A stretch of DNA of 64,000 bases. It comes from Rikenellaceae bacterium. Its GTDB lineage: Bacteria > Bacteroidota > Bacteroidia > Bacteroidales > Rikenellaceae. Under the pieces are notes generated by a model. It worked only from the letters and a program-made list of their open reading frames with translations. It was not told where the DNA came from and did not search any database. The number at the start of each line of letters is the position of its first letter. The stretch's first letter is position 1. Positions 5,446-43,282 of this stretch are shown piece after piece. Made by a program: the position numbers and the translations under genes. Location of the stretch: the NCBI GenBank assembly GCA_031551275.1, contig JAVBNX010000018.1, positions 5,501-69,500 of the forward strand, in the 5' to 3' direction.

Positions 5446-5570
5446 AAATCCACAACCAAATTACATATTTCGTCCGGGTTTGCAAAACCAAACGGGATAT
5501 TTTCTTTCCCGGATACAAAAGTGTGGAATGTTCGGTACGAATTTATCCAGTCCGGCCCGGGGCAATGGGC

Positions 5571-5578: not shown

Positions 5579-5586
5579 ATTTCAGA

Positions 5587-6837: not shown

Positions 6838-6854
6838 TCCAAACTCAACCCTTT

Positions 6855-9995: not shown

Positions 9996-10007
9996 CGAGT
10001 CGCGACG

Positions 10008-11750: not shown

Positions 11751-11757
11751 TACTTTT

Positions 11758-12963: not shown

Positions 12964-12965
12964 CC

Positions 12966-14132: not shown

Positions 14133-14138
14133 GATACC

Positions 14139-16657: not shown

Positions 16658-16658
16658 A

Positions 16659-18599
16659 ATGAAAAAAATCCTTTTGCTGTTGTGCCTTTTGGCCGGGATG
16701 AAGGCCTTCGGGGCCTTTCCGGAGCGTCCACGGTTGGTCCTTTCGGCCTCGGACCTGGTGGAGTTGAGAGAGCATGTGGAGTCGGAGAAGCAGCCCTGGA
16801 AATGGGCCTGGGAGAACCTGCAAAAGGATGCCGAGCGGTATATGGCGGAGAAATTCCAGCCCATGCCCTACTTCGGGCCCGACAGCAAAAAGTGCTACGA
16901 CGTTTTGATGCGGGACGCCTACGCGGCCCGCGACCTGGCCATCGCCTATTACGCCTCGGGCGAGAAGCGCTACGCCGAAAAGGCCGCCATGATCCTGGCC
17001 GCGTGGCTGCCCAGGGAGGGCCCCCTGCCCGGGACGGCGTTCGATCCCGAGTTGAACTACTCGAGCCTGGGGATGCTTGCCGCCCGCTCGATCTTCCCCT
17101 ACCTCTACGCCTACGACCTGTTGAAAGGGGGCGGCATGATCCCCGAGGGGGCCGATGCGAGGCTGGAGGAGTGGTTGAGAAGCCGTGCGGAGCAAATCCG
17201 CGAGGGAGCCCGCCGGTGGAAGGATAACGACTACTTCGATAAGCAGTATTACCAGAACCACATCGTCGCCGACGCGATGGGCCTGATGGCGATCGGGATC
17301 ACTTTGGGCGACGAACAGATGGTCCGGTACGCGGTCGACTCGCCCGGGAACGAGCGCGATCTGAAAGATTTGATCGCCGGGATCATCCTGATGGAGGGCG
17401 AGAAACCCTACTACCGCGAGCCGGGCGACTGGCCCGTGCAGACGGGCGAGATCGCCGACCGCTACCGCCACTTCGAGATCGGGGGGCACTACAAGGACTA
17501 TGTGACCAAGCCCAACCGGGGGCTGCAGTACTGCGGGCTCTCGACCACGCTGTTGATGATCGCCGCCGAGATGGGGCGTTTGAACGGGATCGACCTGTGG
17601 GGCTATGTCGCCCCGGGGGGCGAAACGCTGCGCCTGCCGTTGGAGTTCTACTCGGGATTCTATTACCTGAAAAGCGATACGATCCAGGGCGGGTTCTACA
17701 CCGGGGAGAAACCCTGGATCAACGGCAACGAGTCGTGCACCTGGACGATGTGGGAGGTGGGCAACAAGCGCCTGCCCGGCGAAAAGAAATTCGAGGCGGT
17801 CCTGGAGGCCAACCGGGGCGGGAAGTATATGCCCCTGCATTTGCTGGGCCCCGTGGCGTTGACCCACGCCGTGGCCCTGACTCCGGAGCAGGAGATGGCT
17901 GCCCTCAAATTGCTTCCCTGGAAGACAACCTTTGAGGACGGTATGAGAGGCGATTGGCAGGAGAAATGGCATCTGGATGGCGAGGTCGGGACGGTAAAAA
18001 CCTCGCCCAAAGGGCTGGAAATGAAGGCCGGGCCCCAGGAGAAGAACAACGCCGACCACATGGTTTTGTGGGCCAAACCGGAGTTCAAGGGCCCCGTCAG
18101 GATCGAATACGACTTTACCCGGTTGGATAAATCGAAGGCCGGGACGGTCAATATCATCTACCTGATGGCCACCGGAAGCGGCCAGGGCCCCTACAAGGAG
18201 GATATTTTCGAATGGAACGACCTGCGCAAAGTCCCCGCGATGGCTACCTATTTCGACCACATGAACGCCTACCACATCAGCTACGCGACCGTGGACCCGG
18301 AGGGCAGCTACGTACGTGCGCGCAGATATATGCCCCTGCTGAACAAGGGATTGAACGGCACGGCTTTAACGCCCGAGTACATCCATGCCGATATGTTCAA
18401 GCCCGGCGTGAAGTACCACATCACAGTCATCCAACACGGCGACAGGCTCTTTCTGGAGGCGACCGGCAAGGGGAAGACCGAGCTCTTCTGGTTCGATACC
18501 TCGACCCTGCCGCCTTTGGACCGCGGGCGCGTAGGCCTGCGGTTGATGTGGACGCGCAACTCGCTCTTCTCGGATTTCTCGGTCGGAACGCTGGAATAA
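16659..18599 (+). CDS. polysaccharide lyase-like toroid protein, paralog 2, with C-terminal YesU/DUF1961-like (ConA-like) domain
   Basis: 646 aa with an SPI-type signal (MKAFGAF). The first ~410 aa are about 70-75 percent identical, by eye alignment, to the upstream gene (YYQNHIVADAMG, GEIADRYRHFEIGGHY). The extra ~230-aa C-terminal domain (nt ~17901-18599) resembles DUF1961 by recall. Confidence 0.55.
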   Translation: MKKILLLLCLLAGMKAFGAFPERPRLVLSASDLVELREHVESEKQPWKWAWENLQKDAERYMAEKFQPMPYFGPDSKKCYDVLMRDAYAARDLAIAYYASGEKRYAEKAAMILAAWLPREGPLPGTAFDPELNYSSLGMLAARSIFPYLYAYDLLKGGGMIPEGADARLEEWLRSRAEQIREGARRWKDNDYFDKQYYQNHIVADAMGLMAIGITLGDEQMVRYAVDSPGNERDLKDLIAGIILMEGEKPYYREPGDWPVQTGEIADRYRHFEIGGHYKDYVTKPNRGLQYCGLSTTLLMIAAEMGRLNGIDLWGYVAPGGETLRLPLEFYSGFYYLKSDTIQGGFYTGEKPWINGNESCTWTMWEVGNKRLPGEKKFEAVLEANRGGKYMPLHLLGPVALTHAVALTPEQEMAALKLLPWKTTFEDGMRGDWQEKWHLDGEVGTVKTSPKGLEMKAGPQEKNNADHMVLWAKPEFKGPVRIEYDFTRLDKSKAGTVNIIYLMATGSGQGPYKEDIFEWNDLRKVPAMATYFDHMNAYHISYATVDPEGSYVRARRYMPLLNKGLNGTALTPEYIHADMFKPGVKYHITVIQHGDRLFLEATGKGKTELFWFDTSTLPPLDRGRVGLRLMWTRNSLFSDFSVGTLE

Positions 18600-19589: not shown

Positions 19590-21746
19590 TTACAGCATCG
19601 GTCTGAGGTTTTCCCACTTCACATCCCAGTTGCCGTCCTGCGGGAAGCCGGGGTTGGGGATGGCCGGCGCACCCGTCCATCCGGCGCACATCATCGCCAC
19701 CGTGGCCAGGGTCCCGCCGTTGCCCGAGATGGAGATACGCATGGCAGGACTGTTGTAGTTGTGCCCGTTGGGCTTGTACTGGTTGGCGGACTCCTCTTTC
19801 AGCAGGGCCTCGAGGGCCGTTTCGGGCTGGTTCAACCGTATGGCGCACATGGCGGTCATCGGATAGTCCCATCCCCAGGTCGAGGGCCAGTTCCAGTTTT
19901 GCATGACCCAGCCCAACGTGTTGCGCATCACGGCGGTGTCCACCAAAGGGGTCTGGGGCAGCACGCCGAAGGCGGACAGTACGCTCATGTGGTCCGAGGT
20001 AAAACGCTCGTCCTGGTAGGTCTGGGGGACCGACTCGGCGGCGAGGTAGAGCCCGTCCTTTTGGGCCAGGGGGGAGAGTTTGGATAGGACCTCGTCCCAT
20101 TTCTTCTCGCGGGGCAGGCCCATCCTTTCACGCCATTGCTGCGCGAGGTCCAGCGCGTAATGCCAGTAGGCCAGCTCGTAGGGCGGGTTGACGGTCTCCT
20201 CGGGGGTCAGGCTCTCCTGCGCGGGGATCACGCCCTTGAGGATATAGCGGTCGGCTTGGGGATCGTAATCGGCAAAATCGGCCATGAATGCCGCCGTTTC
20301 AAAGACGATGTCCTTGTATTTTTCAAGCGTCTCGGGGGTCGGGTCGGCGCGGTACAACAACTCGGCGAAGTACAAGGGATGCGGCTGCTGCCAGATCAGG
20401 AACGAGGAGATGTAGGAGGGCGACTCGCCCGCCCAGGGATCGGTCATCTTCATCCACCTGACCCCTTCGAAGCCCTGCCTTCGGGCGATCTCCCGCGCTG
20501 CGGGCATGGCAGACCCGTACCAGGGCATGATTCCGGCCAAACGTTCGGGACGGTTCCACAGCGCGTAGTGGATGCCGTGCCACCACGTCATCTCGAGGTG
20601 GAACTTGCCGAACCAGGAGTTGTAGCACAAGGCGGTCTCCTGGGGCGGCATCGACCCGGAATTCATCGCGGCGGTAATGTATTGCGAGAGCACGACGCGC
20701 CGCTCCAGTTCTTTGGCCCTCGGATCCTTGCAGGCGGAAAAGTCGACCGCCCCGCCGCTCTTCCAGAAAGTTTCCCAGCTTTTGGCGCAGGCCTTTTGAT
20801 CCGCGTTGAAACCGGCGGGAGAGGCTGTCGCGGCCGGGGGTTCGGGTGCGAATTCGCACGTAAAGGCGATCACATCGCCCGAGAGGGCCGAGAGGCGGAA
20901 TTTGTGGAGCTCGGGCTGCGTAAGCTCGCAGTCGCCCTGCCAGCAGATCCGGATATAGTAGGCCGTCGTGTCGAGGGTGTGCTCGATCAGGGCTTGCCCT
21001 TTGTCCTGTTTTACGACGCGGGAGGTGTGCTTTTCAGGGCTGTCCCAGTCGCACGCGTCGTCGGAGTGCAGGCCCGTGGGGTAGGGCAGGCTCAGATCGA
21101 CGGACATCGCCCCTTCCGATACCCTTTGGGAGCGGACCCGCGCGGCGATCCGGTCGTTGTCGGGACTGCACAGGGTGGTTACCTCGGTGGGTACGCCGCA
21201 AACCTGATAGCTGCTCGTGATCTCCCCGCGCCACATATCCAGCGTCTGGTCGATATCGGTAACCTGCTCCGGGGTAACTTTCGCCCCGTTGTCGGCGACC
21301 ATATGCAGCCCGACAAGCCCTAAGTGAAGCCTGTGGGGGTTGGTGCGGAACCACCGCCCCGCGCCCTGCCCGCCTGTGGGATCGGCTGCGTCGAACTCGG
21401 GAGCCAAACGGAAATCGAAGTAGGCGTAAGGCTCCTCGCGTCCCCGGAAATTGTAGTTTTTAAGGTACTGGTCGGGCGTGTAGTGCATCACGTCAGGGAA
21501 GGAGTGCCAGCCCCACTCCGACATCGTGCCCAGGCAAACGCCCTGTTGGTAGAGCTCAGGGAAAGTCTGTAGCCCCGTGGCGTCGACCGTCATGGCGAAG
21601 GCCCCGTTGCCCACCGTGAGCGACGAGTAAGGCTCGAATCCGGTTATGTGGGGGTTATTGCGCGTGACCAGGGCATGGCGGTCGATCTTCCCGCTGCCGC
21701 ACGCCGCTAAAAAGAGCGTCAAGGCGAAAAGGACTATTTTTTTCAT
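19590..21746 (-). CDS. large lipoprotein of unassigned family, possibly a glycoside hydrolase-like (alpha/alpha) barrel protein
   Basis: 718 aa. Lipobox LFLAACGSG. Trp/aromatic-rich conserved-looking segments (MSEWGWHSFP, FHLEMTWWHGIHYALWNRP, FLIWQQPHPLYFAE). The function is guessed from context only. Confidence 0.4.
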   Translation of the reverse strand: MKKIVLFALTLFLAACGSGKIDRHALVTRNNPHITGFEPYSSLTVGNGAFAMTVDATGLQTFPELYQQGVCLGTMSEWGWHSFPDVMHYTPDQYLKNYNFRGREEPYAYFDFRLAPEFDAADPTGGQGAGRWFRTNPHRLHLGLVGLHMVADNGAKVTPEQVTDIDQTLDMWRGEITSSYQVCGVPTEVTTLCSPDNDRIAARVRSQRVSEGAMSVDLSLPYPTGLHSDDACDWDSPEKHTSRVVKQDKGQALIEHTLDTTAYYIRICWQGDCELTQPELHKFRLSALSGDVIAFTCEFAPEPPAATASPAGFNADQKACAKSWETFWKSGGAVDFSACKDPRAKELERRVVLSQYITAAMNSGSMPPQETALCYNSWFGKFHLEMTWWHGIHYALWNRPERLAGIMPWYGSAMPAAREIARRQGFEGVRWMKMTDPWAGESPSYISSFLIWQQPHPLYFAELLYRADPTPETLEKYKDIVFETAAFMADFADYDPQADRYILKGVIPAQESLTPEETVNPPYELAYWHYALDLAQQWRERMGLPREKKWDEVLSKLSPLAQKDGLYLAAESVPQTYQDERFTSDHMSVLSAFGVLPQTPLVDTAVMRNTLGWVMQNWNWPSTWGWDYPMTAMCAIRLNQPETALEALLKEESANQYKPNGHNYNSPAMRISISGNGGTLATVAMMCAGWTGAPAIPNPGFPQDGNWDVKWENLRPML

Positions 21747-21759
21747 AGGTCCGGATTGT

Positions 21760-21786
21760 AAAAAGGGAAGGCTTTTGGGCCTTCCC
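21760..21786 (-). terminator. rho-independent terminator of the pilus-like operon
   Basis: On the minus strand: gggaaggc/ccaaaa/gccttccc followed by TTTTT, located 25 nt after the stop of the 21811-24132 gene. Confidence 0.55.
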
Positions 21787-21810: not shown

Positions 21811-24132
21811 CTATTGCCAGTCGAGCTTGGGATAGGTCGGATTCCCGCCGTTCCAGCTTCCGTAGTTGCCCCAATAGGAGCTCCATCCCGTGGTGGACGA
21901 GTTTGGCCATGCCGTGGCGGAGAAAGCGGTCCCTTTGACGTCGGTCAGGAGGGTCTTAGAGGCGTCGTAGTAGCACGAAATGCCCTCTCCGCCCTGGTAA
22001 TACCGTCCGGCCACCGCGCCTGTGGTTGCCGAGGCTTCGGCGTAGACCGCGCCCGAAGTCCAGCAGGCAGTGATCGTCGCGCCGGTGTAACGGCAGTATC
22101 CGCACACGCCGCCCGCGTTGGTCGTGGTGGGGTTGGTCACGCTGCCGGTGTTCCAGCAGGCGGTCATCAGGCCCGCCACGCCGTTGTAGCCGACCACGCC
22201 GCCTATGTTACCCACAGCGTCGCTGCTGCCCGTGCCGTTCACGCCCTCGATAGCCGCCGAGTTGTAGCAGGAGACCACGGTGGGAGTCCCTTCCGGAGCG
22301 GTCGCACCGTTGATGCTGTTCGCACCGGCGACCCCGCCCACGAAGGTACGTCCCTTGACGGCGGCCGTGTTGCCGCACTCCTTGACCAGGCCTACGGTTT
22401 GTCCGGCGATCCCGCCGATGTAGGAACTCGAGGTGGTCCCCCCGCCGTCCACGACCGCGTTGTTCATGCAGCGCTCGATGGTCGAGGAAATCCCGTTGTA
22501 GGCCGCGATGCCTGCGCAGAATTGGCCTGCGGTGGACACAGCGCCCGAGTTGGTGCAGCGTGCGATCGTCCCCGCGTCGTTGCGGGCGCAGACCCCGCCG
22601 ATGTAGGCGAGAGAGATGGCCGGTACGCTTACCTTGCCCTTGTTCTGGCATCCGGTAATTGAACCGTTGTCCTGGTTGACGGCGCAGATACCCGCCGCAA
22701 CGCTCTTCCCGGCCAGATCGACCTCGTTGACGCAGTCGGAGATCGTCCCGCCCACGTTGAAGACGCAGAGTACCGCGACGGTGTCCTTGCCGGCCACGCT
22801 GCCCGAAGCGATGTGGATCTTATTGAGCGTACCCCGGTTGTAGGCGAACATGGCGACCTTGTCGTTGCTGCCCGGAATATTCAGTTCGTTGATCTTGAAT
22901 CCATTGCCGTTGTATGTCCCGGAGAAGGGCTTAGCCGGGGTCCCCACGGGGGCCCATGTGATGCCGGTCAAATCGATGTCGTTCTCCTGCTTGTAGCTCT
23001 TGGCGGGGTTGTCCTTGATGACCATCAACTCCTCGATGATCGAGACCAGCGCCACGCCGTTGTCTTCGCGGGGGATGACCTTGCCTGCGCCGTCGACGCT
23101 GAAGCGGATCATCGTGGTGGCAGGAAGCCCCACCCGGATGGCGGGATCGGTGCCTTTTTGGATCGATGTGATCGCGCCGCCCGCCTGGGCGAAGTCGGTA
23201 AAGGGCATCGAGCCTTTGCCGTCGTCGTCGAGGGTAACCTGCCCGGTCGCGCCGTTCGAGAAGGCGACGTCGAGAACGGTCCCGGCGGGATAGCCTGTGA
23301 TCTCGAAGTTGCTTACCAGGGCCTGGCCGCTGCCCGCGCCCGCGCCGCCCTCGTTCCAGTCGTCGATCGCCACGGGGGTTATGACCAGCTTGCCGGCCAG
23401 AAGCATCATGTTGAACTTGTAGCGCGTGCCCGCCGCGAAGGTCGTTTGGGGAGCCTCCACGGTGCACCAGTAGGTCTTGCCCTGGTAGGTCAGCGAAACG
23501 TCGGTCGAGGCCACCTCATCGGGGGGCAGGATCGCCTGGAAGCGGGTCTGGCCCGGGATGTTGTAGGCGGTCAGCAGGTCGTCGGCCGTCTCCAGGGTAA
23601 CCACCGAGGTAGCCATCGCTTCGGTGGGCAGACCCTGCACGGTAATGTCCATCAGCGTGTTGGCGTGCCCCATCGCCACCCCGGCAAGGTTCTTGACCGG
23701 ATCGTGGGCCGCGAGTTTGGTCTTCAATACGTCGGCGTCCAGCAGGCCTTTCAGGGTACCGTCCTGCGCGGAAGGCGTGCCTGCGGGTTGCAGGGTCAGC
23801 CAGATATCGTACTTGCCCAGGGTGGGGTAGGCGATCGCCGTGGTCTTGGGAAGCCACTTGGCCTGGGTAGCGTTGTAGGCGTAGAGGGCCGTGTTGTCCT
23901 CGGTGCTGACCGCTACGGTCAGTTCGTGGCCGATGGCCGCCGCCCCGCGTCCCGACAAGGGGTCCATGGTCGGATCGTCGCCCAACGCTTTGGTAGCGTA
24001 GGCCTGCGGGATGTAAAGGTTTACCGATTCGAGTGAGGCGGCTCCCTGGCCGGGCATTTGTTCCTGCTTGGCGCAGCCGACCGCCGCGGCGCAGCCGAGG
24101 ATCAGAAGGGCGATATGGTTTATCTTTTTCAT
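21811..24132 (-). CDS. fimbrillin-like lipoprotein fused to a GLUG-like repeat domain (putative tip/adhesin subunit)
   Basis: Start moved to the Met at 24132 (MKKINHIALLILGCAAAVGCAK, lipobox). The N-terminal ~260 aa are fimbrillin-like. The C-terminal ~400 aa (nt 21811-23040) hold at least 9 repeats of the pattern C-x-N-x-G...GG[IV][AVC]G (DCVNEV, GCQNKG, RCTNSG, RCMNNA, ECGNTA, SCYNSA, ACWNTG, ACWTSG...). The protein ends ...NPTYPKLDWQ. Confidence 0.6.
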   Translation of the reverse strand: MKKINHIALLILGCAAAVGCAKQEQMPGQGAASLESVNLYIPQAYATKALGDDPTMDPLSGRGAAAIGHELTVAVSTEDNTALYAYNATQAKWLPKTTAIAYPTLGKYDIWLTLQPAGTPSAQDGTLKGLLDADVLKTKLAAHDPVKNLAGVAMGHANTLMDITVQGLPTEAMATSVVTLETADDLLTAYNIPGQTRFQAILPPDEVASTDVSLTYQGKTYWCTVEAPQTTFAAGTRYKFNMMLLAGKLVITPVAIDDWNEGGAGAGSGQALVSNFEITGYPAGTVLDVAFSNGATGQVTLDDDGKGSMPFTDFAQAGGAITSIQKGTDPAIRVGLPATTMIRFSVDGAGKVIPREDNGVALVSIIEELMVIKDNPAKSYKQENDIDLTGITWAPVGTPAKPFSGTYNGNGFKINELNIPGSNDKVAMFAYNRGTLNKIHIASGSVAGKDTVAVLCVFNVGGTISDCVNEVDLAGKSVAAGICAVNQDNGSITGCQNKGKVSVPAISLAYIGGVCARNDAGTIARCTNSGAVSTAGQFCAGIAAYNGISSTIERCMNNAVVDGGGTTSSSYIGGIAGQTVGLVKECGNTAAVKGRTFVGGVAGANSINGATAPEGTPTVVSCYNSAAIEGVNGTGSSDAVGNIGGVVGYNGVAGLMTACWNTGSVTNPTTTNAGGVCGYCRYTGATITACWTSGAVYAEASATTGAVAGRYYQGGEGISCYYDASKTLLTDVKGTAFSATAWPNSSTTGWSSYWGNYGSWNGGNPTYPKLDWQ

Positions 24133-24145
24133 CGTTCGCTCGAAA

Positions 24146-24889
24146 TTACTGGATGGTAAGGGTAATCGTGTTGTTGCTGCCGGCAGCCAGCGCGGGGGCC
24201 GTGGAGAGGGTAAATTCGACGACACCGCCGTTTACCATGGCCCAACCCTTGTCGGTCGTGTTCAAAAGCGTGGCCTGGGCCGTCGCATCGAGGATCAGTT
24301 GCGCCTCCTTGATCGAGCCGTCGGCGTCGCAGTAGGCATCGAATCCCTTGTAAGTCAGTGCGGTAATTTTATCCCCGGAAGCGGTCGCGAAGGAGACCTT
24401 GCTGCGCTGGTGGGAGAGCGTGACCGCCAGTGAGGCCTGCGCCGAGACGTTGGTCAGGGTGGCCGAGAGCCAGTCCGCCGAGAGGAAGTCGACCTTTTCG
24501 GTCTGGTCCGTGGGAACAGCCGCCCCGATCGCCGTGCGCACCGCCGTCGAGGGCCAGAGCACCTCGACCCGGATCGGGCCCACCGGATAGTAGAGCATGG
24601 TGGCCGAGGAGGCCGCCTTCAGCGTCCCCGCGTCGTACACATAATCTGCCGCGCGGTTGTAGTTGTCGCCCGTGCACTTGACCGAAGCGAGGGAGAAGTC
24701 CAGCTCGGCGTCCGCAAGGCCGAAGTAGTCCGCGGGGGCGTAGTTCTGCGCCGCTTTGGTAATCCCCTCCACGCGGATCACGAGGGCTTGCTCCCCGGCC
24801 TGTTGGGGCTCGCTCTTCGAGCAGGCTGCCATCGCCGTTAAGGCGGGTATCAGCACGATATATTTGATATATCTTTTCATTTCTGTCAA
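24146..24889 (-). CDS. small fimbrillin-like lipoprotein
   Basis: 247 aa. Lipobox LTAMAACSK. All-beta-looking composition. Sits between the two large subunits with 3-13 nt spacers. The start could be the Met at 24880. Confidence 0.45.
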   Translation of the reverse strand: MTEMKRYIKYIVLIPALTAMAACSKSEPQQAGEQALVIRVEGITKAAQNYAPADYFGLADAELDFSLASVKCTGDNYNRAADYVYDAGTLKAASSATMLYYPVGPIRVEVLWPSTAVRTAIGAAVPTDQTEKVDFLSADWLSATLTNVSAQASLAVTLSHQRSKVSFATASGDKITALTYKGFDAYCDADGSIKEAQLILDATAQATLLNTTDKGWAMVNGGVVEFTLSTAPALAAGSNNTITLTIQ

Positions 24890-24892
24890 GGA

Positions 24893-27415
24893 TTAGAAAG
24901 ATTGGAACAGGACCACATCAGGCCATTTGGTTTTCAGGGCGGCTTCCCAGCCCAGGGTCGGGTAGACCGTGGTGGCTCCACCGAAATTCCATCCCCCGAG
25001 GGAAGACCAGTTGGTGTCCCACCCGTTTCCGGAAGCGGCCACGGGCCAGCCCGAAGCATCGCCCGAAAATTCGGTCGCATTGGCGTCGGCGATCATATCG
25101 GAGGCCCGGAACAAACCCGACGCGGTTCCCGCCTGGTTTCCTATGACCCCGTTTATGGTCGTTGCCGTGCTCGAGGTAACGGTTGTGCCTACGGCGTAAA
25201 CGGCTTTGGTTGTGTAGGCGGTAAAGTTGGTTCCGGCGACGCCCCCGATCTGGGCCGCACTGGCTCCCTGACCCGTTACGCTGCCTCCCTTGCTGTAACA
25301 CGAGATCACAAAGGATTGGTTTACGCCCATAACGCCGCCGATGCCCGCCGAACCTGAGGCACTTCCGCCCAGGTTGGCGCATCCGATTATTTCGCTTGAG
25401 TACCCGTTGCGTGTTGCCCCGGCGGCAGAATAGGAACCGGTGTTGGACCCGGCGATCCCGCCGATGTTGTTTTTGCCTTCAATGCTTCCCGAATTGCCGC
25501 AATTAAGGATCAGCGTGCCGTTCTGGTTCTTGCCTACGATACCCCCGACCGAGTTGCCGTTGCTGGAACCGGTCCAGGCAAGGCTGTATGATCCTACTGA
25601 AACGTTGCCTGTATTGAAACACTCCTTGATCGTGGAACCGTTGTTAGTGGCCCCCACGATCCCTCCCGTGTCGCGCGCGGTCAAAGCGGATGTGGGATTG
25701 CTCAGGTTGCCGGTATTCAGGCAGCCGATTACCTCGACGCCCTGGTTGGCCGTCCCGACGATGCCGCCCACGTTGTTGGCCGTGGCGGTAATGTTGCCGT
25801 TGTTGCGGCAGTTGACGATCTTGGCATAGGGAGGGGTAGCCGCGGCACTCTGGGAAGATCCGGCGATGCCCCCGATGTTGGCATTCCCGTTGATTGATGC
25901 GTTGTTGACGCAGTTTTCGATAACCCCATTGTTGACAGCCGCAATGGAGCCGCAACCGTTACCGGCGTTCGAGGAGATGTTACCGGATGCAATTACCACG
26001 TTTTTCACTTTCCCTGTGGCACTGACAGTGGCAAACAGCCCGGCATTGCTCGTCGGCGTAACGTTCAGCGAGATGGTCAGGTTAGAGAGGCTGTTGCCGC
26101 CCCCGTCGTAGCTTCCGGTCAGGGCCCCCAGGGGAGTCCAGTTCGAACCGCTTAGACTGATATCGCAGATCTGGCCATAGTGCAGGGCCAGGCCTGTGCC
26201 GACCGCTTCCAGTTCGGTGCGGTTGGCGACGAACTTGGGCTTGGCGGCCGTGCCGTCGCCTTTGTTGAGTTCGGCGGCGGTCTCGGTAATGGTCAGGTAG
26301 CCGTAGTCGGGGAGTTTGTAGATGTTCGCGCCTACGGTAACCTTCACTTTGGTCAGCTCCCCGGCCGGCAGGCGGGAGAGGGTAATGTTGCCCTCGCTGA
26401 CCGGGGCGGTAAATTTCGCCGCTTCGGCGTCCTCGAATTCGATCTGGGTAATCCCTGTGAAGTAGTCCGAGGTAATGGGGATGGTAATCTTCTCCACGCC
26501 GCCGTTCTCGTCGGCCATGATGTCGCCCAGGTCCGATTCGGTCCACTCGCCGGGGGTCATCGTGACCGAGGCCACGGTGGGCTGGTCGATATTAACGGTA
26601 ACGGTGTAGCTCTCGCCCGCCTCGAGGGTAATGTCGGAGCCGCCCGCCGGGGGCGCGATGGGCATATCCTCGCCGATCAGGTAGGTGTCGACCGTCACGC
26701 TGGCGATCGAGGTCAGGGTCGTCCCGTCGGGGATAAGGTAGAAGATCTTTTCGGTGTCGTCAGCGCCCCCGTTGGCCGTGGTAACCGAGTAGGAGGCGGT
26801 GTAGGCCGTCGCTGAGGCCGAGGAGACCGTTTTTACGGTCGGGGCGGCCAGCGCGTTGAACACCCCGGTCGTCTTGCCCGCCTTCAGCCCGATGGTCACG
26901 TCGTGGTCGCCCGGGAAGGTGGATTTGACGTTGACCTTGACCTTGAGCTGGCACATCAGGTGGCGGAATTCCATGGTCCTGTCGGTGGAGTTCTTGCCGG
27001 TGACCAGGTTGTTGCTCAACAGGTAGTCGCCCGCGGCGCCTTCCGCGGCCGCGAGGGCGATGTTGCCGTCGTTGGTGGTCACGCTCGGGGTCGATACGTC
27101 GCCCGCGTTGGCCAGGGCCACGAAGTGGAGCGTGCTGCCGTCCTGGGGCCAGAAGAAGGTGTTGGCCGTGGTCATTACCGCGCTCCCGTCGAAGGTGGCG
27201 GGGGCTCCCGAGACCACCAGGTTGGACCAGGTCGTGCTCTGGCCTTTTAAGGCGTACAGGTTGATGGGCAGCTCCGACGGCGTGCGGGTCGAACCTGCGA
27301 TCCGGGCATCGAAGATGACTGAATCCTGCCCGGTCGTGGCCGGGACCTCTTTGGCGCAGCCCGCGAAGAGCATCGCGGCCAGGGAGAGGATCAGGTAGAG
27401 GTTAAATCGCTTCAT
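24893..27415 (-). CDS. fimbrillin-like lipoprotein fused to a GLUG-like repeat domain (putative tip/adhesin subunit), paralogous architecture
   Basis: 840 aa. Lipobox MLFAGCAK. Fimbrillin-type segment MEFRHLMCQLKVKVNV. The C-terminal region (nt 24893-26233) has at least 7 repeats (NCVNNA, NCRNNG, GCLNTG, ECFNTG, NCGNSG, GCANLG, SCYSKG), each followed by GGI[AV]G. The protein ends ...TVYPTLGWE.... Confidence 0.6.
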   Translation of the reverse strand: MKRFNLYLILSLAAMLFAGCAKEVPATTGQDSVIFDARIAGSTRTPSELPINLYALKGQSTTWSNLVVSGAPATFDGSAVMTTANTFFWPQDGSTLHFVALANAGDVSTPSVTTNDGNIALAAAEGAAGDYLLSNNLVTGKNSTDRTMEFRHLMCQLKVKVNVKSTFPGDHDVTIGLKAGKTTGVFNALAAPTVKTVSSASATAYTASYSVTTANGGADDTEKIFYLIPDGTTLTSIASVTVDTYLIGEDMPIAPPAGGSDITLEAGESYTVTVNIDQPTVASVTMTPGEWTESDLGDIMADENGGVEKITIPITSDYFTGITQIEFEDAEAAKFTAPVSEGNITLSRLPAGELTKVKVTVGANIYKLPDYGYLTITETAAELNKGDGTAAKPKFVANRTELEAVGTGLALHYGQICDISLSGSNWTPLGALTGSYDGGGNSLSNLTISLNVTPTSNAGLFATVSATGKVKNVVIASGNISSNAGNGCGSIAAVNNGVIENCVNNASINGNANIGGIAGSSQSAAATPPYAKIVNCRNNGNITATANNVGGIVGTANQGVEVIGCLNTGNLSNPTSALTARDTGGIVGATNNGSTIKECFNTGNVSVGSYSLAWTGSSNGNSVGGIVGKNQNGTLILNCGNSGSIEGKNNIGGIAGSNTGSYSAAGATRNGYSSEIIGCANLGGSASGSAGIGGVMGVNQSFVISCYSKGGSVTGQGASAAQIGGVAGTNFTAYTTKAVYAVGTTVTSSTATTINGVIGNQAGTASGLFRASDMIADANATEFSGDASGWPVAASGNGWDTNWSSLGGWNFGGATTVYPTLGWEAALKTKWPDVVLFQSF

Positions 27416-27429
27416 ATCTCCTTTTGTTA

Positions 27430-28275
27430 TTATTCGACAACGTAGCCCTCATGGACGTTCCATCCCGTGACCTGTCCGGTAATGTCGAACGAGTCGAGGG
27501 TAATGGTTATGTTCTTCGGGGTGCTCTTGTTTGTGTTGAAATCCGCGAGCACGGAGTCCAAATCGAAGGCGATGGCCTGGGTGGAGGTCCCGTCCTTGAG
27601 TTTGATGTTCAAAACCAGGTCGTGGCGGATGCCGGGGATGATTCCGAACAGTCTGGCCGTGGCCACGCAGCCCGAGGGGCCCATCTCGAAGACAGGCGCC
27701 AGGTTCAGGCGCGGGGATTCCAGCACCGAGTAGCCGTCCAGTTCGACCCCGGAGGAGACGCCCGTCAGCGATGCGGATACGACCGAGTTGATCGCGTTCT
27801 GGATCCCCCCCGCGGCTTGCAGGGAGATGTTCAGCTCGCGGACCTGCTGGACCATCGGGGCGTTGATCACACCGCCGTCGGCACCTACCTGTACTTCGCC
27901 CGCGTAGGCAAACAGCCAGCCCGGCTCGTTGATGGCGACCAGCGTGGTGGTGTTGTAGCTTACCACGGCGGTCTTGGTCGCGTCGGTGTGGGTAATGGTC
28001 ATCCCCGCGGGCTGGTTGTAGATGTAGACGCGTTGCGTCCCGGTCAGCACCTCCACGGGGAAGGTCACGCCCGTTCCCGAAAGAGTGAACCGGTGGCTGC
28101 CTACCGCCACAAGGTAGTTGGCCGGAACGGCCGCCGAGGAGGTGCGCGCACTCCAGTCGGGGTTGACCGTTACGGCACCCTTCCGGTACGGGGTTACTCC
28201 GTCGTCCTCTTGGAGGCAGGAGGTCATCACGCAACAGAGTGCAGCGGCGGCGATGAAGAGTCTCTTTGCTTTCAT
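27430..28275 (-). CDS. FimB/Mfa2-like fimbrial anchor/terminator lipoprotein
   Basis: 281 aa. Lipobox CVMTSC. Size, first-in-operon position and beta-rich two-domain look resemble Mfa2-family proteins. This is recognition by recall, not a strict motif. Confidence 0.45.
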   Translation of the reverse strand: MKAKRLFIAAAALCCVMTSCLQEDDGVTPYRKGAVTVNPDWSARTSSAAVPANYLVAVGSHRFTLSGTGVTFPVEVLTGTQRVYIYNQPAGMTITHTDATKTAVVSYNTTTLVAINEPGWLFAYAGEVQVGADGGVINAPMVQQVRELNISLQAAGGIQNAINSVVSASLTGVSSGVELDGYSVLESPRLNLAPVFEMGPSGCVATARLFGIIPGIRHDLVLNIKLKDGTSTQAIAFDLDSVLADFNTNKSTPKNITITLDSFDITGQVTGWNVHEGYVVE

Positions 28276-28327: not shown

Positions 28328-28335
28328 CAAATTTA
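28328..28335 (-). promoter_or_regulatory. candidate TAnnTTTG -7 box for the pilus-like operon
   Basis: The minus strand reads TAAATTTG, about 52 nt upstream of the Mfa2-like start codon. Confidence 0.3.
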
Positions 28336-28495: not shown

Positions 28496-30319
28496 ATGAA
28501 ACCAATGTATGCAACCGCCGCCGTTTTGCTGACCGCCTGCTCCCTGCTGGGAGCCTGCAAAGAGAAGGACGGCAAATCTTCCCGCCCCTACACCGACCTG
28601 ACGGTAACCTCCCCCTATCCCTACCAGGTGAGGTTCGAGGGCAGCACCGAAACCGTGGAGTTTACCTGCTCCTTTACCACCTCCTGGGAGGCCTCCGTCA
28701 GGGCGTTGGACGGGGGGAGTTGGATCTCGATCTCTTCGCCCGCGCGGGGCGAGGGTGACGGAACGGTCCGCCTCGCGGTCGATCCCAACCCCGACGGCGC
28801 GGTCCGCCTGGCCGAGCTGACTTTCAGCTCCAACGGGGCGACGGTCAAGCACGAGATCATGCAGGAGGCCAAGGGGACCACCCTGACCTTCCCCGGGACG
28901 ACCATCCACTCCTGCATCCAATTTACCGAGGACCACCTCAACCGGTTGAAGTCCGCATACACCACCGCGCCCGCGGGCTCGACCCTGCGTTCGGCCTTCG
29001 ACGCGCTGACCACGCGGTGCAACAATTACAGTGCGTCGTTCAACGCCTCGGCCGGTGTGCAGCCCGCCGCCGGCATAGCGGAGAACAACTCCGACGACTA
29101 CTACACGCGCATCCTCAACCGGGCGGCGATCGCACGCGACTACGCCTTGCTGTACCACCTGACCGGAACGACCTCCTACGCAACCAATTCGGTGGCCATC
29201 ATGATGGCCTGGGCCAACTTCTCGACGGATATCGACTTTACCCAGTACCGCAGCGCGGACGATGAGGACGGCGGCGCCTCGTCGGATTACAGCCCCAACA
29301 TGGGCATGAAACTGGCGCGCTCGATCTACCCCATCTTCTCGGCCTACGATATGCTGCAGGAAACGGGTGTGATGACCGACGACCAGAAAGCGGTCATCGC
29401 AAGGTGGTTCAGGGCGACCTATCCCCAGATCATGGTCTGCCAGGAGCGGTGGCGCAACAACAACTACCACAACATGCAGCTCTGGCAAAACCACCTGGTC
29501 GCCGCCAGCATGGGCGTGATGGCCGCCGGCGCGGCGTTGCGCGACCCGCGCATCGTAAGGCTCGGGCTCAACTCCCAAGACAACACCCGCAACCTGGTCC
29601 GCTGCATCCAGGGGACGATCTTCGTGGAGGCGGACGGCAACCTCTCCAACGACGGCAGCCTGGACTGGATGGGCCCCTGCCACCGCGAAGTACTTACCTC
29701 GGCCTACTACCAGAAGGTGCAGACCGGCGAGATCTACGACCGCTACCGCCACGACACGGGACGCCAGAAAGGCTTCCAGTACTCGGGCCTCTCGACCACC
29801 TTGCTGGTTACCGCCGCGCAGATGGCCAACCACCTCTCGGCGAAGATCAACGGGCAGGATATTTTCGACTACGTGGCCCCCACGGGCGAGAACCTGCTCA
29901 TGCCGCTGGAGTACTACGTGGACTTCTACAACGTGCCCACCACCAACCCCGGGACCAACCCCGTGGAGGGATCATACGCCCTTTCGGGCTACCGCAAGGC
30001 CCAGATCAGGGATGTGATCCCCGGCAAGACGACCTATTACGGCGATGAGGACGAGAAAGACGGCGCGGAAACCAAGATGAACCGCATCGGCATCGCGGGC
30101 GACTACGCAGGCATCTTCGAGTTGGGCTGGAGCTACTACCCCAACAGCGTGCGACTCAAGACGTTCGTGATGGCCAACAACTACGGCCGCGGGGGCAAGG
30201 CCTTTAAGTACGACGATCCCGACCCCGCCAAGGTAAGGAACAACTTCGATCCCTACTCGTCCCTGAACGGTTACTTCCGCTTCTTCTCGGTCCGCAACGG
30301 GCTGGATGTGACCAACTAA
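28496..30319 (+). CDS. BACON-like domain plus polysaccharide lyase-like toroid lipoprotein, paralog 3
   Basis: 607 aa. Lipobox LLGAC. The N-terminal ~100 aa (TVEFTCSFTTSWEASVRALDGGSWISISSPARGEGDGTVRLAVDPNPDGAVRLAELTF) fit the BACON pattern. The body shares LWQNHLVAASMG and GEIYDRYRH...FQYSGLSTTLL with the two paralogs at 15392 and 16659. Confidence 0.55.
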   Translation: MKPMYATAAVLLTACSLLGACKEKDGKSSRPYTDLTVTSPYPYQVRFEGSTETVEFTCSFTTSWEASVRALDGGSWISISSPARGEGDGTVRLAVDPNPDGAVRLAELTFSSNGATVKHEIMQEAKGTTLTFPGTTIHSCIQFTEDHLNRLKSAYTTAPAGSTLRSAFDALTTRCNNYSASFNASAGVQPAAGIAENNSDDYYTRILNRAAIARDYALLYHLTGTTSYATNSVAIMMAWANFSTDIDFTQYRSADDEDGGASSDYSPNMGMKLARSIYPIFSAYDMLQETGVMTDDQKAVIARWFRATYPQIMVCQERWRNNNYHNMQLWQNHLVAASMGVMAAGAALRDPRIVRLGLNSQDNTRNLVRCIQGTIFVEADGNLSNDGSLDWMGPCHREVLTSAYYQKVQTGEIYDRYRHDTGRQKGFQYSGLSTTLLVTAAQMANHLSAKINGQDIFDYVAPTGENLLMPLEYYVDFYNVPTTNPGTNPVEGSYALSGYRKAQIRDVIPGKTTYYGDEDEKDGAETKMNRIGIAGDYAGIFELGWSYYPNSVRLKTFVMANNYGRGGKAFKYDDPDPAKVRNNFDPYSSLNGYFRFFSVRNGLDVTN

Positions 30320-30332
30320 AACCAGAAAATAC

Positions 30333-30372
30333 GAAGGCCCGCCGGAATTTTCGGCGGGCCTTCATTGTTTTT
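30333..30372. terminator. strong hairpin terminator between convergent genes
   Basis: gaaggcccgccg/gaatttt/cggcgggccttc is a perfect 12-bp GC-rich stem, followed by attgttttt on the plus strand. Confidence 0.65.
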
Positions 30373-30382
30373 CGGCGGTCGC

Positions 30383-30934
30383 TTAGAAGCGGTATGCCAG
30401 CGAAACGCCCAGGCGGGTCAAGCCGAAGACGGTCTCCGTCTTGCCTTGCTCGAGCAGCAGGGTGGGGTCGTTCTTGCAGTAAACGTCTGCGTCGAAACAC
30501 CATACACCAGCGCCGATAAAGGCGTCCAGGGACCAGCGGTGGTTGAACCTCCAAGTGTAACCGTAATCCAGGCCGCCGCCGTAAGCGACGCCTTCGCGGA
30601 TATTTTTCTTCTTGGTTATCTGCAACTTGTCGAAGTCGCCGTAGTTGCCGTGCAGACCCAGGTAGTGGCCGTTGAATTTCTCGCAGAAGTAGTAGCGCAG
30701 TTCAGCCGTAGCCCACCAGCCTTTCAGGCTCATGCCTTCGTCTTCCCAGTAGGGCGAGTAGTAGCCTTCGGCCAACAGGGTAAAGTGTTTGGAGAGGCCG
30801 AATTCGAACCCGAGGTTGGGCACGAGGACTGCATCTCCCAACAGGTTGGTACGGATGGTAACCTGCGCATTCGCGCGATAACCCGATGCGCACAGCACGA
30901 GGGCCAGGATGGCTGCCGAAACAAGTTTTTTCAT
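30383..30934 (-). CDS. DUF3575-family outer-membrane beta-barrel protein
   Basis: MKKLVSAAILALVLCASGYRANAQVTIRTNLLGDAVLVPNLGFEFGLSKHFTL and the C-terminal aromatic residue (..LAYRF) match DUF3575. This family commonly heads Bacteroidota fimbrial loci. Confidence 0.7.
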   Translation of the reverse strand: MKKLVSAAILALVLCASGYRANAQVTIRTNLLGDAVLVPNLGFEFGLSKHFTLLAEGYYSPYWEDEGMSLKGWWATAELRYYFCEKFNGHYLGLHGNYGDFDKLQITKKKNIREGVAYGGGLDYGYTWRFNHRWSLDAFIGAGVWCFDADVYCKNDPTLLLEQGKTETVFGLTRLGVSLAYRF

Positions 30935-31064
30935 AATCGTTATCATTTTTTATTTAGGGTTTTCTTTCTTACGCAGCATCAGGTTATAATACTGCATAAT
31001 AATACGAGTACAAAATTATTCAAATTATTTTGATTTGCGAACTGTTTGGACTAATTTTACCCTC

Positions 31065-41589: not shown

Positions 41590-41957
41590 TGCGTTTCTTA
41601 CTGACCATACTGTTGCTCCTCTCCGGAGCCGTTTACGCCGCACCCGGCATCGAACTCTCCGAGCGCACCTGGGATTTCGGCCGGATCAGCGCCAAGGGCG
41701 GTAAGGTCAAGAAGGAGATTACCGTGACCAACACGGGCGACTCGCCGCTTTTGATCCAGTCGGTCGAGGTGGCCTGCACCTGCACCAAAGTGGAGTATCC
41801 CAAACAACCCATCCTGCCCGGAGCGAGCGCGACGATCTTGATCACGGTCAACCCGAGGGGACAGCAGGGCAGCTTTATCCGGACGGTCAATATATTCAAT
41901 AACTCCGGGGATTTCAGGCAGATCGTGGTAATAAAGGGCACAATAACAGTACGATGA
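41589..41957 (+). CDS. DUF1573 domain protein (secreted Ig-like)
   Basis: 122 aa with a signal peptide. WDFGRI...VTNTGDSPLLIQSVEVACTCT is the DUF1573 signature. The start overlaps the tonB stop by 1 nt. Confidence 0.8.
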   Translation: MRFLLTILLLLSGAVYAAPGIELSERTWDFGRISAKGGKVKKEITVTNTGDSPLLIQSVEVACTCTKVEYPKQPILPGASATILITVNPRGQQGSFIRTVNIFNNSGDFRQIVVIKGTITVR

Positions 41958-43270: not shown

Positions 43271-43282
43271 CCCCGCTTGCCG

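What the first reader, a model, noticed from the sequence alone, without database searches (positions are those of the whole stretch)
21811..28275. Type V pilus-like operon whose two large subunits are fimbrillin-like lipoproteins fused to about 400-aa GLUG-like, Cys-containing repeat domains
Four co-directional lipoprotein genes are separated by 3-14 nt spacers and followed by one terminator: Mfa2-like 281 aa, 840 aa, 247 aa and 773 aa. The two large proteins share one architecture: a lipobox, a ~290-aa fimbrillin-like domain, a ~100-aa linker domain, and then 7-9 or more repeats of about 25-35 aa. Each repeat has a Cys in a C-x-N-x-G context followed by GG[IV][AV]G, and both proteins end in a YP-x-L-x-W type tail. 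A regularly spaced Cys in every repeat would form a Cys ladder if the domain folds as a beta-helix. There is no obvious 400-550-aa major stalk pilin, so the locus may encode a short or non-polymerising adhesin display system rather than a classical Mfa/Fim pilus. A large C-terminal fusion is hard to reconcile with canonical C-terminal strand-exchange polymerisation.
Basis: partly seen in the sequence, partly recalled or inferred. Interest (0 to 1): 0.7.

Follow-up and report, generated by a model that had tools for sequence, protein, structure and literature searches.

The report
Pilus operon with beta-helix adhesin tips
This is a real four-gene Bacteroidales type V pilus-like operon in which two pilin-fold lipoproteins carry a large GLUG beta-helix module of the kind found in IgA1 proteases; it is an undescribed but recurrent variant of a known pilus system, most likely a very short fibre that displays adhesins.

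Summary
Four co-directional minus-strand lipoprotein genes lie at 21811-28275 (281, 840, 244 and 773 aa), separated by 12-14 nt and followed by one strong terminator. Pfam finds an Mfa2-like anchor and three fimbrillin-like proteins.

An AlphaFold model of the 840-aa protein puts a type V pilin fold at residues 30-292; its best PDB matches are Bacteroides pilins (E 1e-8). Residues 394-760 form a confident right-handed beta-helix. A profile of this region matches PDB 3n6z (E 4e-31) and the beta-helix domain of M26 IgA1 proteases. There is no protease motif.

The one-Cys-per-coil pattern and the W..W..YPxL tail are features of every GLUG module, not of this locus.

At least ten co-linear homologues exist (825-1395 aa, 26-35% identity). 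They sit in the same anchor / GLUG-pilin / 240-aa pilin / small-pilin cassette, usually behind DUF3575, DUF3868/OmpA and an ECF sigma/FecR pair. Only in this window does the fourth pilin also carry the GLUG module.

Most likely this is a stalk-poor type V fibril with two alternative beta-helix adhesin tips. It is a new variant of a known kind, of moderate interest.

The parts
28328..28335 (-). Candidate Bacteroidetes -7 promoter box TAAATTTG (TAnnTTTG), 53 nt upstream of the ATG of gene A
   Evidence: Read from the sequence. The motif is short, so this is weak evidence; the consensus is quoted from my own knowledge of Bacteroides promoters. No inverted repeats flank it, so there is no sign of an invertible promoter.
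27430..28275 (-). Gene A, 281-aa lipoprotein, Mfa2/FimB-like anchor subunit
   Evidence: Pfam Mfa2 23.4 bits against a cut-off of 21.2. Six of 7 family members hit Mfa2. It is 29-35% identical to the gene that precedes the GLUG-pilin in L023, L025, L028, L004 and L007. Lipobox VMTS|C.
26540..27415 (-). Gene B, residues 1-292: signal peptide with lipobox (Cys20) and a two-lobed type V pilin (fimbrillin) domain; Arg44 lies in the predicted beta1-beta2 loop
   Evidence: Pfam Mfa_like_1 66 bits, residues 50-291. The AF2 model from alignment A3 has pLDDT 75-90 over residues 30-290, with beta1 at 34-39 and beta2 at 48-57. Foldseek top hits are Bacteroides pilins 3ufi, 4k4k and 3sy6, E 1e-8 to 8e-8, target TM 0.60-0.63; Mfa2, Mfa3 and Mfa4 also match. 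The Arg in this loop is conserved in 8 of 11 family members.
26240..26533 (-). Gene B, residues 295-392: linker domain, probably a small beta-sandwich
   Evidence: AF2 predicts beta-strands at only pLDDT 32-55. The region aligns with a conserved linker in the family. The fold is not established.
24944..26236 (-). Gene B, residues 394-824: GLUG-type right-handed beta-helix, made of a head (DISL..WTPLG..GSYDGGGNSL), 7 Cys/Asn-containing coils and a W..W..YPTLGWE cap
   Evidence: AF2 pLDDT 85-97 over about residues 390-760. Foldseek matches 3n6z at E 7e-7, then IgA1 proteases 7uvk and 6xja. The profile of A1 matches 3n6z at E 3.9e-31 and 6xjb/7uvl/6xja at about 1e-21. The co-linear homologue P0030 scores 99.9 bits against Pfam Glug.
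24896..24943 (-). Gene B, residues 825-840: a 16-residue extension past the family-conserved C-terminus
   Evidence: Seven co-linear homologues (P0029, P0030, P0044, P0054, P0056, P0057, P0074) and D773 end at YPxLxW[EQ]. The extension probably comes from read-through of a lost stop codon into the former spacer (inference).
24146..24880 (-). Gene C, 244-aa lipoprotein, a short fimbrillin-like subunit (candidate adaptor or short stalk); conserved basic residue TK|A after beta1
   Evidence: Pfam Mfa_like_1 23.8 bits, below the cut-off of 27. hhalign gives 94% probability against the D family and 92% against the B family. It is 30-37% identical to the gene that follows the GLUG-pilin in L023, L025, L027 and L028. 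The orthologue in L023 reaches 27 bits.
23347..24132 (-). Gene D, residues 1-262: lipobox (Cys20) and fimbrillin domain; conserved TK|A site at Lys48
   Evidence: Pfam Mfa_like_1 29.9 bits. It is 27-33% identical to the 274-372-aa fourth gene of L023, L027 and L028, none of which has a GLUG module.
21814..23325 (-). Gene D, residues 270-773: linker plus GLUG beta-helix (8 Cys coils), ending at YPKLDWQ
   Evidence: BLASTP against B gives E 5e-30 and against P0029 E 1e-27. The GLUG protein P0012 matches at E 7.7e-20. D was included in the profile that hits 3n6z.
21760..21786 (-). Intrinsic terminator: GGGAAGGC-CCAAAA-GCCTTCCC followed by TTTTT
   Evidence: The next same-strand gene (19590-21746) starts about 18 nt later, so partial read-through cannot be excluded.
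30383..30946 (-). DUF3575 outer-membrane protein gene, probably the detached first gene of the ancestral locus
   Evidence: Pfam DUF3575 152.6 bits. It is 32-33% identical to the DUF3575 genes that head the related operons L023, L028 and L004. It is separated from gene A by an opposite-strand BACON/Alginate_lyase-like gene at 28496-30319.

Best explanation
The locus encodes a stalk-poor type V (Mfa/Fim-class) pilus, that is, a short surface fibril whose job is to display GLUG beta-helix adhesin modules.

Proposed mechanism:
1. All four products are exported as lipoproteins and moved to the cell surface.
2. A surface Arg/Lys-specific protease cuts the beta1-beta2 loop of B (Arg44), C (Lys42) and D (Lys48). 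This removes the lipidated anchor strand and opens a groove.
3. B and D carry about 500 residues of cargo after their pilin domain, so they have no free C-terminal donor strand. They can only accept a strand, and so they occupy the distal (tip) position. They would be two alternative tips, each carrying a beta-helix of roughly 11-12 coils on a small linker domain.
4. C (244 aa) is the candidate adaptor or short stalk.
5. The Mfa2-like protein A keeps its lipid, donates its C-terminal strand and anchors and terminates the fibre.
6. The beta-helix is a non-catalytic binding module homologous to BACOVA_03286 (PDB 3n6z) and to the substrate-gating beta-helix of M26 IgA1 proteases. Its ligand is unknown.

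Shown here: gene order, lipoboxes, the pilin fold of B, the beta-helix fold and its homology, conserved basic residues in the loop, and conserved synteny.

Inferred: the cleavage, the order of subunits, polymerisation and the adhesive function.
For: - Operon structure.
- Pfam Mfa2 and Mfa_like_1.
- Pilin fold of B by AF2 plus Foldseek (3ufi, 4k4k, 3sy6 at E about 1e-8; also Mfa2 5nfi, Mfa3 5nf4, Mfa4 5dhm).
- Beta-helix: AF2 pLDDT 85-97; Foldseek 3n6z, 7uvk, 6xja; profile against the PDB, E 3.9e-31.
- No HExxH motif in any of the four proteins.
- Basic residue after beta1 is conserved in 8 of 11 B-type, 3 of 3 C-type and 3 of 3 D-type sequences.
- The cassette A-B-C-D is conserved in L023, L025 and L028, and B-C-D in L027. 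None has a 400-550-aa stalk pilin.
- A second, shorter fimbrillin+GLUG family (P0013 and relatives) is the last gene of DUF3575-Mfa2-fimbrillin operons.
- Polarity of type V assembly, and tips lacking donor strands: PMC13655056.
- Precedent for a tip protein carrying a non-pilin adhesive domain: Mfa5 with its vWA domain, PMC7835359.
Against: - Nothing here shows polymerisation, cleavage or binding.
- No multimer modelling was possible, so the roles of A, C and the tips are assigned by analogy.
- C is about 40 residues short of the Mfa_like_1 profile and is below the Pfam threshold. It may be unable to donate a strand, in which case no stalk exists at all.
- A, C and D have no sequence-level match in the PDB, even with profiles.
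- No gingipain-like protease was seen among the window ORFs scanned. Only 64 kb is visible and not every ORF was scanned.
- The DUF3575 gene is detached, and the DUF3868/OmpA gene found in relatives is missing. The locus could therefore be a partly decayed version.
Confidence: 0.6

Rival explanations
1. These are non-polymerising surface lipoproteins. B and D stay lipid-anchored monomers. The pilin-fold domain is just a stalk that lifts the GLUG beta-helix off the membrane, and A and C are independent small surface lipoproteins.
For: - No large stalk pilin in this operon or in four related ones.
- C is truncated relative to the Mfa_like_1 profile.
- Residues after the lipid Cys are K/E/D-rich, as in Bacteroidetes surface lipoproteins (the export signal is quoted from my own knowledge).
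Against: - An Mfa2-like anchor gene is strictly conserved immediately upstream of the GLUG-pilin.
- A basic residue is conserved in the beta1-beta2 loop, exactly where FimA and Mfa1 are cut.
Both features make sense mainly if strand exchange occurs.
Confidence: 0.25
2. The beta-helix is an enzyme, a polysaccharide lyase or hydrolase, or a glycan-capture module that works with the flanking polysaccharide utilisation locus. The pilus would be a tether for a carbohydrate-active domain.
For: - The operon lies between Alginate_lyase-family genes (15392-18599 and 28496-30319), next to GH88, SusC/SusD and a hybrid two-component sensor.
- Right-handed beta-helices are common in lyases. Foldseek gives weak hits to a K1 capsule lyase, a GH87 enzyme and a fucoidan lyase (E 0.02-0.9, probability 0.07-0.5).
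Against: - The significant matches are all to the non-catalytic GLUG beta-helix (3n6z and the IgA1 protease N-terminal domain). The lyase hits are not significant.
- The polysaccharide-locus context is mostly not conserved. L023 and L028 are next to ECF sigma/FecR, and L007 is next to conjugative-transposon genes, although L027 follows a SusC/SusD pair.
- No catalytic family is hit in Pfam or NCBIfam.
Confidence: 0.08
3. The locus is a decaying remnant with no function: a rearranged operon that has lost DUF3868/OmpA, has a detached DUF3575 gene, and has a read-through extension on B.
For: - The DUF3575 gene is separated from the operon by an inserted opposite-strand gene, and there is no DUF3868/OmpA or ECF sigma/FecR nearby, unlike L023 and L028.
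- B has 16 extra C-terminal residues.
Against: - All four ORFs are intact, with lipoboxes, tight spacing and a terminator.
- D has gained a complete 500-residue module with an intact head, coils and cap.
- Composition matches the rest of the window.
Confidence: 0.07

Closest known systems
Porphyromonas gingivalis Mfa1-5 / FimA-E type V pili
   Same: - Lipoprotein precursors and the two-lobed pilin fold.
- A basic residue in the beta1-beta2 loop.
- An Mfa2/FimB-type anchor gene.
- Accessory tip subunits encoded in the same operon, including a tip protein (Mfa5) that carries a non-pilin adhesive domain.
   Different: - No 380-560-aa stalk pilin.
- The gene order starts with the anchor.
- The adhesive module is a GLUG beta-helix fused directly to the C-terminus of a pilin domain, not a vWA protein with a type IX secretion signal.
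- Two such tips sit in one operon.
Small Bacteroides 'putative cell adhesion' pilins solved by structural genomics (PDB 3ufi BACOVA_04980, 4k4k BACUNI_00621, 3sy6 BF1861, 3t2l BF1858)
   Same: These are the best structural matches to B residues 30-292 (E 1e-8 to 3e-7, target TM 0.57-0.63). They are similar in size (257-278 aa) to the pilin domain of B.
   Different: They are only 12-16% identical to B and end soon after the pilin domain, without a linker or beta-helix. I could not verify from a paper whether they are classed as tip or stalk pilins (Xu et al. 2016 is not held).
BACOVA_03286 (PDB 3n6z) and the beta-helix N-terminal domain of M26 IgA1 metalloproteases (PDB 6xja, 6xjb, 7uvk)
   Same: They share the GLUG beta-helix module, with the same head motif and the same one-Cys-per-coil register (I-x-N-C-x-x-x-G ... 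GG[IV]xG). In the pneumococcal enzyme this domain moves to let the IgA1 hinge bind (PMC7695701).
   Different: There is no metalloprotease domain and no HExxH motif. The module is attached to a pilin instead of an enzyme, and it is longer (about 11-12 coils).
Short fimbrillin+GLUG proteins (P0013, P0016, P0018, P0019, P0021, P0022; 543-605 aa) of gut metagenomes
   Same: They hit both Pfam Mfa_like_1 and Glug. Each is the last gene of a DUF3575-Mfa2-fimbrillin operon.
   Different: They have no linker domain and only 5-6 coils. They are a different pilin subfamily, alike only in the GLUG part (27-31% identity over 19-36% of D). One operon lies next to conjugative-transposon genes (L007).

Membership tests
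Type V pilus (FimA/Mfa superfamily) system | Subunits are made as lipoproteins (signal peptide with a lipobox Cys) | tested here: met
   All four proteins have a lipobox ending at Cys20. The Cys is invariant in the B, C and D family alignments; in the A family it aligns in every member with an intact N-terminus but is not listed as invariant in A4, which includes a truncated sequence.
Type V pilus (FimA/Mfa superfamily) system | Pilin fold: two transthyretin-like beta-sandwich lobes | tested here: met
   Tested for B only. AF2 gives pLDDT 75-90, and Foldseek top hits are Bacteroides pilins at E 1e-8, plus Mfa2, Mfa3 and Mfa4. For A and D the evidence is Pfam above threshold. For C it is Pfam below threshold plus hhalign at 92-94%.
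Type V pilus (FimA/Mfa superfamily) system | Arg/Lys protease site in the beta1-beta2 loop of polymerising and tip subunits | tested here: inconclusive
   A conserved basic residue is present at the right place: B Arg44 (8 of 11 homologues), C TK|A (3 of 3) and D TK|A (3 of 3). Cleavage itself cannot be tested here.
Type V pilus (FimA/Mfa superfamily) system | Mfa2/FimB-type anchor subunit | tested here: met
   A scores 23.4 bits against Pfam Mfa2 (cut-off 21.2). Six of 7 orthologues hit Mfa2, best E 4e-7.
Type V pilus (FimA/Mfa superfamily) system | A major stalk pilin with free C-terminal donor strands that polymerises | tested here: not met
   There is no 380-560-aa pilin in the operon or in the related operons. 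The only candidate is C at 244 aa, and its donor capacity is unknown. The locus is therefore filed as a variant, not a canonical Fim/Mfa pilus.
Type V pilus (FimA/Mfa superfamily) system | Formation of heat-stable polymers by strand exchange | not testable with these tools
   This needs biochemistry, EM or multimer modelling.
GLUG module (Pfam PF07581; beta-helix of 3n6z / M26 IgA1 protease N-terminal domain) | Pfam Glug motif above the gathering score | tested here: not met
   B scores 16.3 bits against a cut-off of 20.5, and D has no hit. The co-linear homologue P0030 scores 99.9 bits and P0013 scores 45.9 bits.
GLUG module (Pfam PF07581; beta-helix of 3n6z / M26 IgA1 protease N-terminal domain) | Homology to solved GLUG beta-helices | tested here: met
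   The profile of B, D and their hits matches 3n6z at E 3.9e-31 and 6xjb, 7uvl, 6xja and 7uvk at about 1e-21 to 2e-20.
GLUG module (Pfam PF07581; beta-helix of 3n6z / M26 IgA1 protease N-terminal domain) | Right-handed beta-helix fold with the head motif and the W..W..YPxL cap | tested here: met
   AF2 pLDDT 85-97, with Foldseek best hit 3n6z. The head consensus DIDL..WTPIG..FTGxFDGNG is shared. The cap motif is shared with 59 of 154 other large GLUG proteins.
M26 IgA1 metalloprotease | Zinc metalloprotease domain with HExxH | tested here: not met
   No HExxH motif in any of the four proteins and no peptidase family in Pfam or NCBIfam. This is not an IgA1 protease.
Mfa5-type tip protein | vWA domain and a type IX secretion C-terminal domain | tested here: not met
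   No vWA or Por_Secre_tail hit. B and D are lipoproteins. The resemblance is functional only.

The most novel reading that the evidence does not exclude
The A-B-C-D cassette defines a distinct, undescribed class of 'mini' type V fibrils with no true stalk: an anchor, one short adaptor and a giant beta-helix head. In relatives it is switched on through an ECF sigma/FecR pair coupled to an STN-DUF3575 outer-membrane protein. Its IgA1-protease-type beta-helix would bind a host mucosal glycoprotein such as IgA or mucin. In this genome the module has been copied onto a second pilin, giving one operon two heads with different specificities.
Probability: 0.2. Interest if true: 0.65.

Novelty: new variant of a known kind. 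Interest (0 to 1): 0.42.

Why it matters
Type V pili are the main adhesive fibres of gut and oral Bacteroidia, but what their tips bind is known for very few of them. The GLUG module is very widespread: 13,204 representative proteins match B at E <= 0.001. Yet almost nothing has been written about it (4 papers mention it). Its only studied role is as the substrate-gating beta-helix of IgA1 proteases.

A conserved operon family that places this module at the acceptor-only position of a type V fibre does two things. It gives a testable hypothesis for GLUG function, namely ligand binding at a pilus tip. It also shows how type V tips gain new specificities by C-terminal domain fusion. The stalk-less cassette would be a simple model for studying how type V assembly starts and stops.

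Tried and rejected
1. The word-indexed protein search with full-length B and D found only the proteins themselves plus distant GLUG hits. The search with B residues 1-400 returned nothing, not even the self protein. That is a tool limitation. The exhaustive HMMER search then found ten co-linear homologues.
2. The scan of GTDB species genomes with B found only GLUG-part relatives at 26-35% identity and not the source genome. The organism is therefore not identified. A Bacteroidales origin is inferred from type V pilins, BACON, SusC/SusD and DUF3575.
3. The scan of JGI metagenomes with the N-terminal family alignment found nothing.
4. Direct sequence and profile searches of A, C, D and the B N-terminal family against the PDB found nothing. 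Only the fold comparison identified the pilin domain.
5. I considered that the conserved extreme C-terminus YPxLxWE could be a pilin donor strand, which would make GLUG an insertion in a polymerising pilin. I rejected this because the same motif closes GLUG modules at internal positions of many unrelated giant proteins.
6. Invertible-promoter (phase variation) control: no flanking inverted repeats.
7. IgA1 protease identity: no HExxH motif and no peptidase domain.
8. I could not obtain Xu et al. 2016 to check whether the best structural matches are classed as tip or stalk pilins.
9. The first AF2 run, with only GLUG homologues in the alignment, left the N-terminal 300 residues unmodelled. The second run, with the family alignment, resolved them. 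The linker domain stayed at low confidence in both.

Full report
**1. Observation**

The minus strand of 21811-28275 carries four tightly packed ORFs:
- A: 27430-28275, 281 aa.
- B: 24893-27415, 840 aa.
- C: 24146-24880, 244 aa from ATG. The 244-aa form is the one held in the public collection, and orthologues align from that Met.
- D: 21811-24132, 773 aa.

The spacers are 14, 12 and 13 nt, and all four proteins have a lipobox ending at Cys20. A 9-bp GC-rich hairpin with a T-tract follows D by 24 nt. The scan found no minus-strand terminator-like site inside the operon. A TAAATTTG box, which matches the Bacteroidetes -7 consensus, lies 53 nt upstream of A; this is weak evidence. No inverted repeats suggest an invertible promoter. 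Composition matches the rest of the window, at about 60-65% GC.

**2. Domains**

Pfam results:
- A: Mfa2, 23.4 bits (cut-off 21.2).
- B: Mfa_like_1, 66 bits over residues 50-291, and Glug, 16.3 bits (below threshold).
- C: Mfa_like_1, 23.8 bits (below threshold).
- D: Mfa_like_1, 29.9 bits.

NCBIfam gives nothing. B and D resemble each other only from B401/D368 to the end (29% identity, E 5e-30).

The repeats are real. B has 7 Cys-anchored units and D has 8, spaced 27-40 residues apart. The motif counts are far above those in shuffled sequence.

**3. The C-terminal module**

An alignment of B, D and their distant hits (A1) gives this consensus: DIDL..WTPIG..FTGxFDGNG.TI..L.I....GLFG, followed by repeated I.NC...G.V.G....GGIxG coils.

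As a profile it matches PDB 3n6z (BACOVA_03286, 'putative IgA1 protease') at E 3.9e-31. It also matches the N-terminal beta-helix of M26 IgA1 proteases (6xjb, 7uvl, 6xja, 7uvk) at about 1e-21 to 2e-20.

AlphaFold2 models B residues 390-760 as a beta-helix with pLDDT 85-97. Foldseek returns 3n6z first (E 7e-7), then the IgA1 proteases. Lyases and tailspike proteins appear only at non-significant scores.

In the pneumococcal enzyme this beta-helix is a mobile, non-catalytic domain that opens to admit the IgA1 hinge (PMC7695701). None of the four proteins has an HExxH motif.

The Cys sits at the same position in every coil, both in the family profile and in 3n6z. The 'Cys ladder' is therefore a family trait that follows from the regular coil register.

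The W..W..YPxL tail closes GLUG modules at internal positions of 59 of 154 other large hits. It is the module's cap, not a pilin donor strand.

**4. The N-terminal module**

The exhaustive HMMER search found 13,204 matches at E <= 0.001, mostly giant GLUG proteins. Ten of the best 150 are co-linear with B from the signal peptide onwards: P0029, P0030, P0037, P0043, P0044, P0050, P0054, P0056, P0057 and P0074 (825-1395 aa, 26-35% identity). They share invariant motifs (D.LLSNNL, M.FRH.M), and most have the same C-terminal end. P0030 scores 99.9 bits for Glug and 40 bits for Mfa_like_1.

With this family alignment, AlphaFold2 models B residues 30-290 at pLDDT 75-90. Foldseek then returns Bacteroides type V pilins (3ufi, 4k4k, 3sy6, 3t2l, 4qb7; E 1e-8 to 8e-7) and also P. 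gingivalis Mfa2, Mfa3 and Mfa4.

Arg44 lies in the loop between predicted beta1 (34-39) and beta2 (48-57), the place where FimA and Mfa1 are cut. An Arg is present there in 8 of 11 family members.

The linker (residues 295-392) is predicted as beta-strands, but at low confidence.

**5. Synteny**

- L023: ECF sigma, FecR, STN-DUF3575, DUF3868/OmpA-like, A-like (275 aa), P0029, C-like (244 aa), D-like (278 aa).
- L028: the same layout, but with a tandem-duplicated A-like gene (512 aa) and a 372-aa D-like gene that includes the linker but no GLUG module.
- L025: A-like, P0030, C-like, D-like.
- L027: P0043, C-like, D-like, downstream of a SusC/SusD pair.

None of these has a 400-550-aa stalk pilin. 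None has a GLUG module on the D-type pilin, so D773 is a local elaboration. Its whole C-terminal part (linker, beta-helix and cap) is homologous to that of B-type proteins. It is only about 29% identical to B, so it is not a recent copy.

A second, shorter fimbrillin+GLUG family (P0013 and relatives) ends DUF3575-Mfa2-fimbrillin operons. One of these lies next to conjugative-transposon genes.

In the window, a 187-aa DUF3575 gene (30383-30946) is separated from A by an opposite-strand BACON/Alginate_lyase-like gene. There is no DUF3868/OmpA gene and no sigma/FecR pair.

**6. Mechanism**

According to the 2026 Mfa cryo-EM paper (PMC13655056):
- Stalk and anchor pilins carry C-terminal donor strands.
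- Tip pilins lack donor strands.
- The anchor lacks the protease site.
- Each new subunit inserts its free C-terminus into the groove of the preceding, more distal subunit.

A pilin domain followed by 500 residues of cargo therefore cannot donate a strand, but it can accept one. Mfa5 is a precedent for a tip protein with a non-pilin adhesive domain (PMC7835359).

I therefore propose a short fibril: A as the anchor, C as adaptor or short stalk, and B or D as alternative tips.

The role of C is the weakest point. In five orthologues it ends right after the AGxxxTIxLxx strand, about 40 residues short of the Mfa_like_1 profile.

**7. Rivals**

- Non-polymerising surface lipoproteins (0.25). The conserved anchor gene and the conserved loop Arg/Lys argue against this.
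- A carbohydrate-active or glycan-capture beta-helix linked to the flanking polysaccharide utilisation locus (0.08). The matches to lyases are not significant, and the genomic context is mostly not conserved.
- A decaying locus (0.07). All ORFs are intact, and D has gained a complete module.

**8. Novelty**

No held paper mentions both GLUG and fimbrillin, or fimbrillin together with beta-helix in Bacteroidia. Only four held papers mention the GLUG motif or domain at all. However, the two-domain architecture is already visible in precomputed Pfam annotations, and the parts belong to known families.

The verdict is a new variant of a known kind: a stalk-poor type V operon family with GLUG beta-helix tips, with this window as an unusual two-headed member. 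Interest is moderate.

Noticed in passing
window 28496-30946: A DUF3575 gene (30383-30946, minus strand) is cut off from the pilus operon by an opposite-strand BACON + Alginate_lyase-family lipoprotein gene (28496-30319). In relatives, DUF3575, a DUF3868/OmpA-like gene and the Mfa2-like gene are contiguous. The window looks rearranged and lacks the DUF3868/OmpA gene.
   Followed up: partly
window 1438-18599: A polysaccharide utilisation locus: hybrid two-component sensor (1438-5445, minus strand), two GH88 genes, SusC/SusD (about 6.9-11.75 kb), a URO-D-like gene (12960-14132, odd in this setting), an MFS transporter, and two Alginate_lyase-family genes (15392-18599). The pilus operon sits between lyase genes.
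   Followed up: partly
L023 3035-5973; L028 458-3845: In related operons an ECF sigma factor and a FecR anti-sigma factor precede the DUF3575 gene. In L023 the DUF3575 protein carries an N-terminal STN domain. This suggests control of this pilus family by trans-envelope signalling.
   Followed up: no
L028 4992-6530: A 512-aa protein made of two tandem Mfa2-like anchor modules. Both halves match A281, at 35% and 26% identity.
   Followed up: no
window 24896-24943: B840 continues for 16 residues (AALKTKWPDVVLFQSF) past the C-terminus conserved in its family (YPxLxWE). Relatives stop there and have a 27-40 nt spacer, so this is probably read-through of a lost stop codon.
   Followed up: partly
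window 24146-24880 and orthologues in L023, L025, L027, L028: The 239-252-aa C-type subunit always ends immediately after an AGxxxTIxLxx strand, about 40 residues short of the end of the Mfa_like_1 profile. Whether this truncated pilin can donate or only accept a strand is unexplained.
   Followed up: partly
window 19590-21786: The operon terminator lies only about 18 nt before the ATG of the next same-strand gene, a 718-aa lipoprotein with only a weak GH65-N-like hit. A methyltransferase gene follows. Read-through co-transcription is possible.
   Followed up: no
window 41633-43945 and 40792-41589: A 770-aa ORF (minus strand) and a 265-aa ORF (plus strand) have no Pfam hit at E <= 1e-4.
   Followed up: no
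L001 8001-12602: P0012, the closest GLUG relative of D773, is a 699-aa lipoprotein without a fimbrillin domain. It is followed by a DUF4988 protein, so the same GLUG module is also displayed directly on non-pilin lipoproteins.
   Followed up: no
(tool behaviour): The word-indexed protein search with B residues 1-400 returned no hit, not even the identical stored protein P0001. Negative results from that tool for this composition are unreliable.
   Followed up: yes
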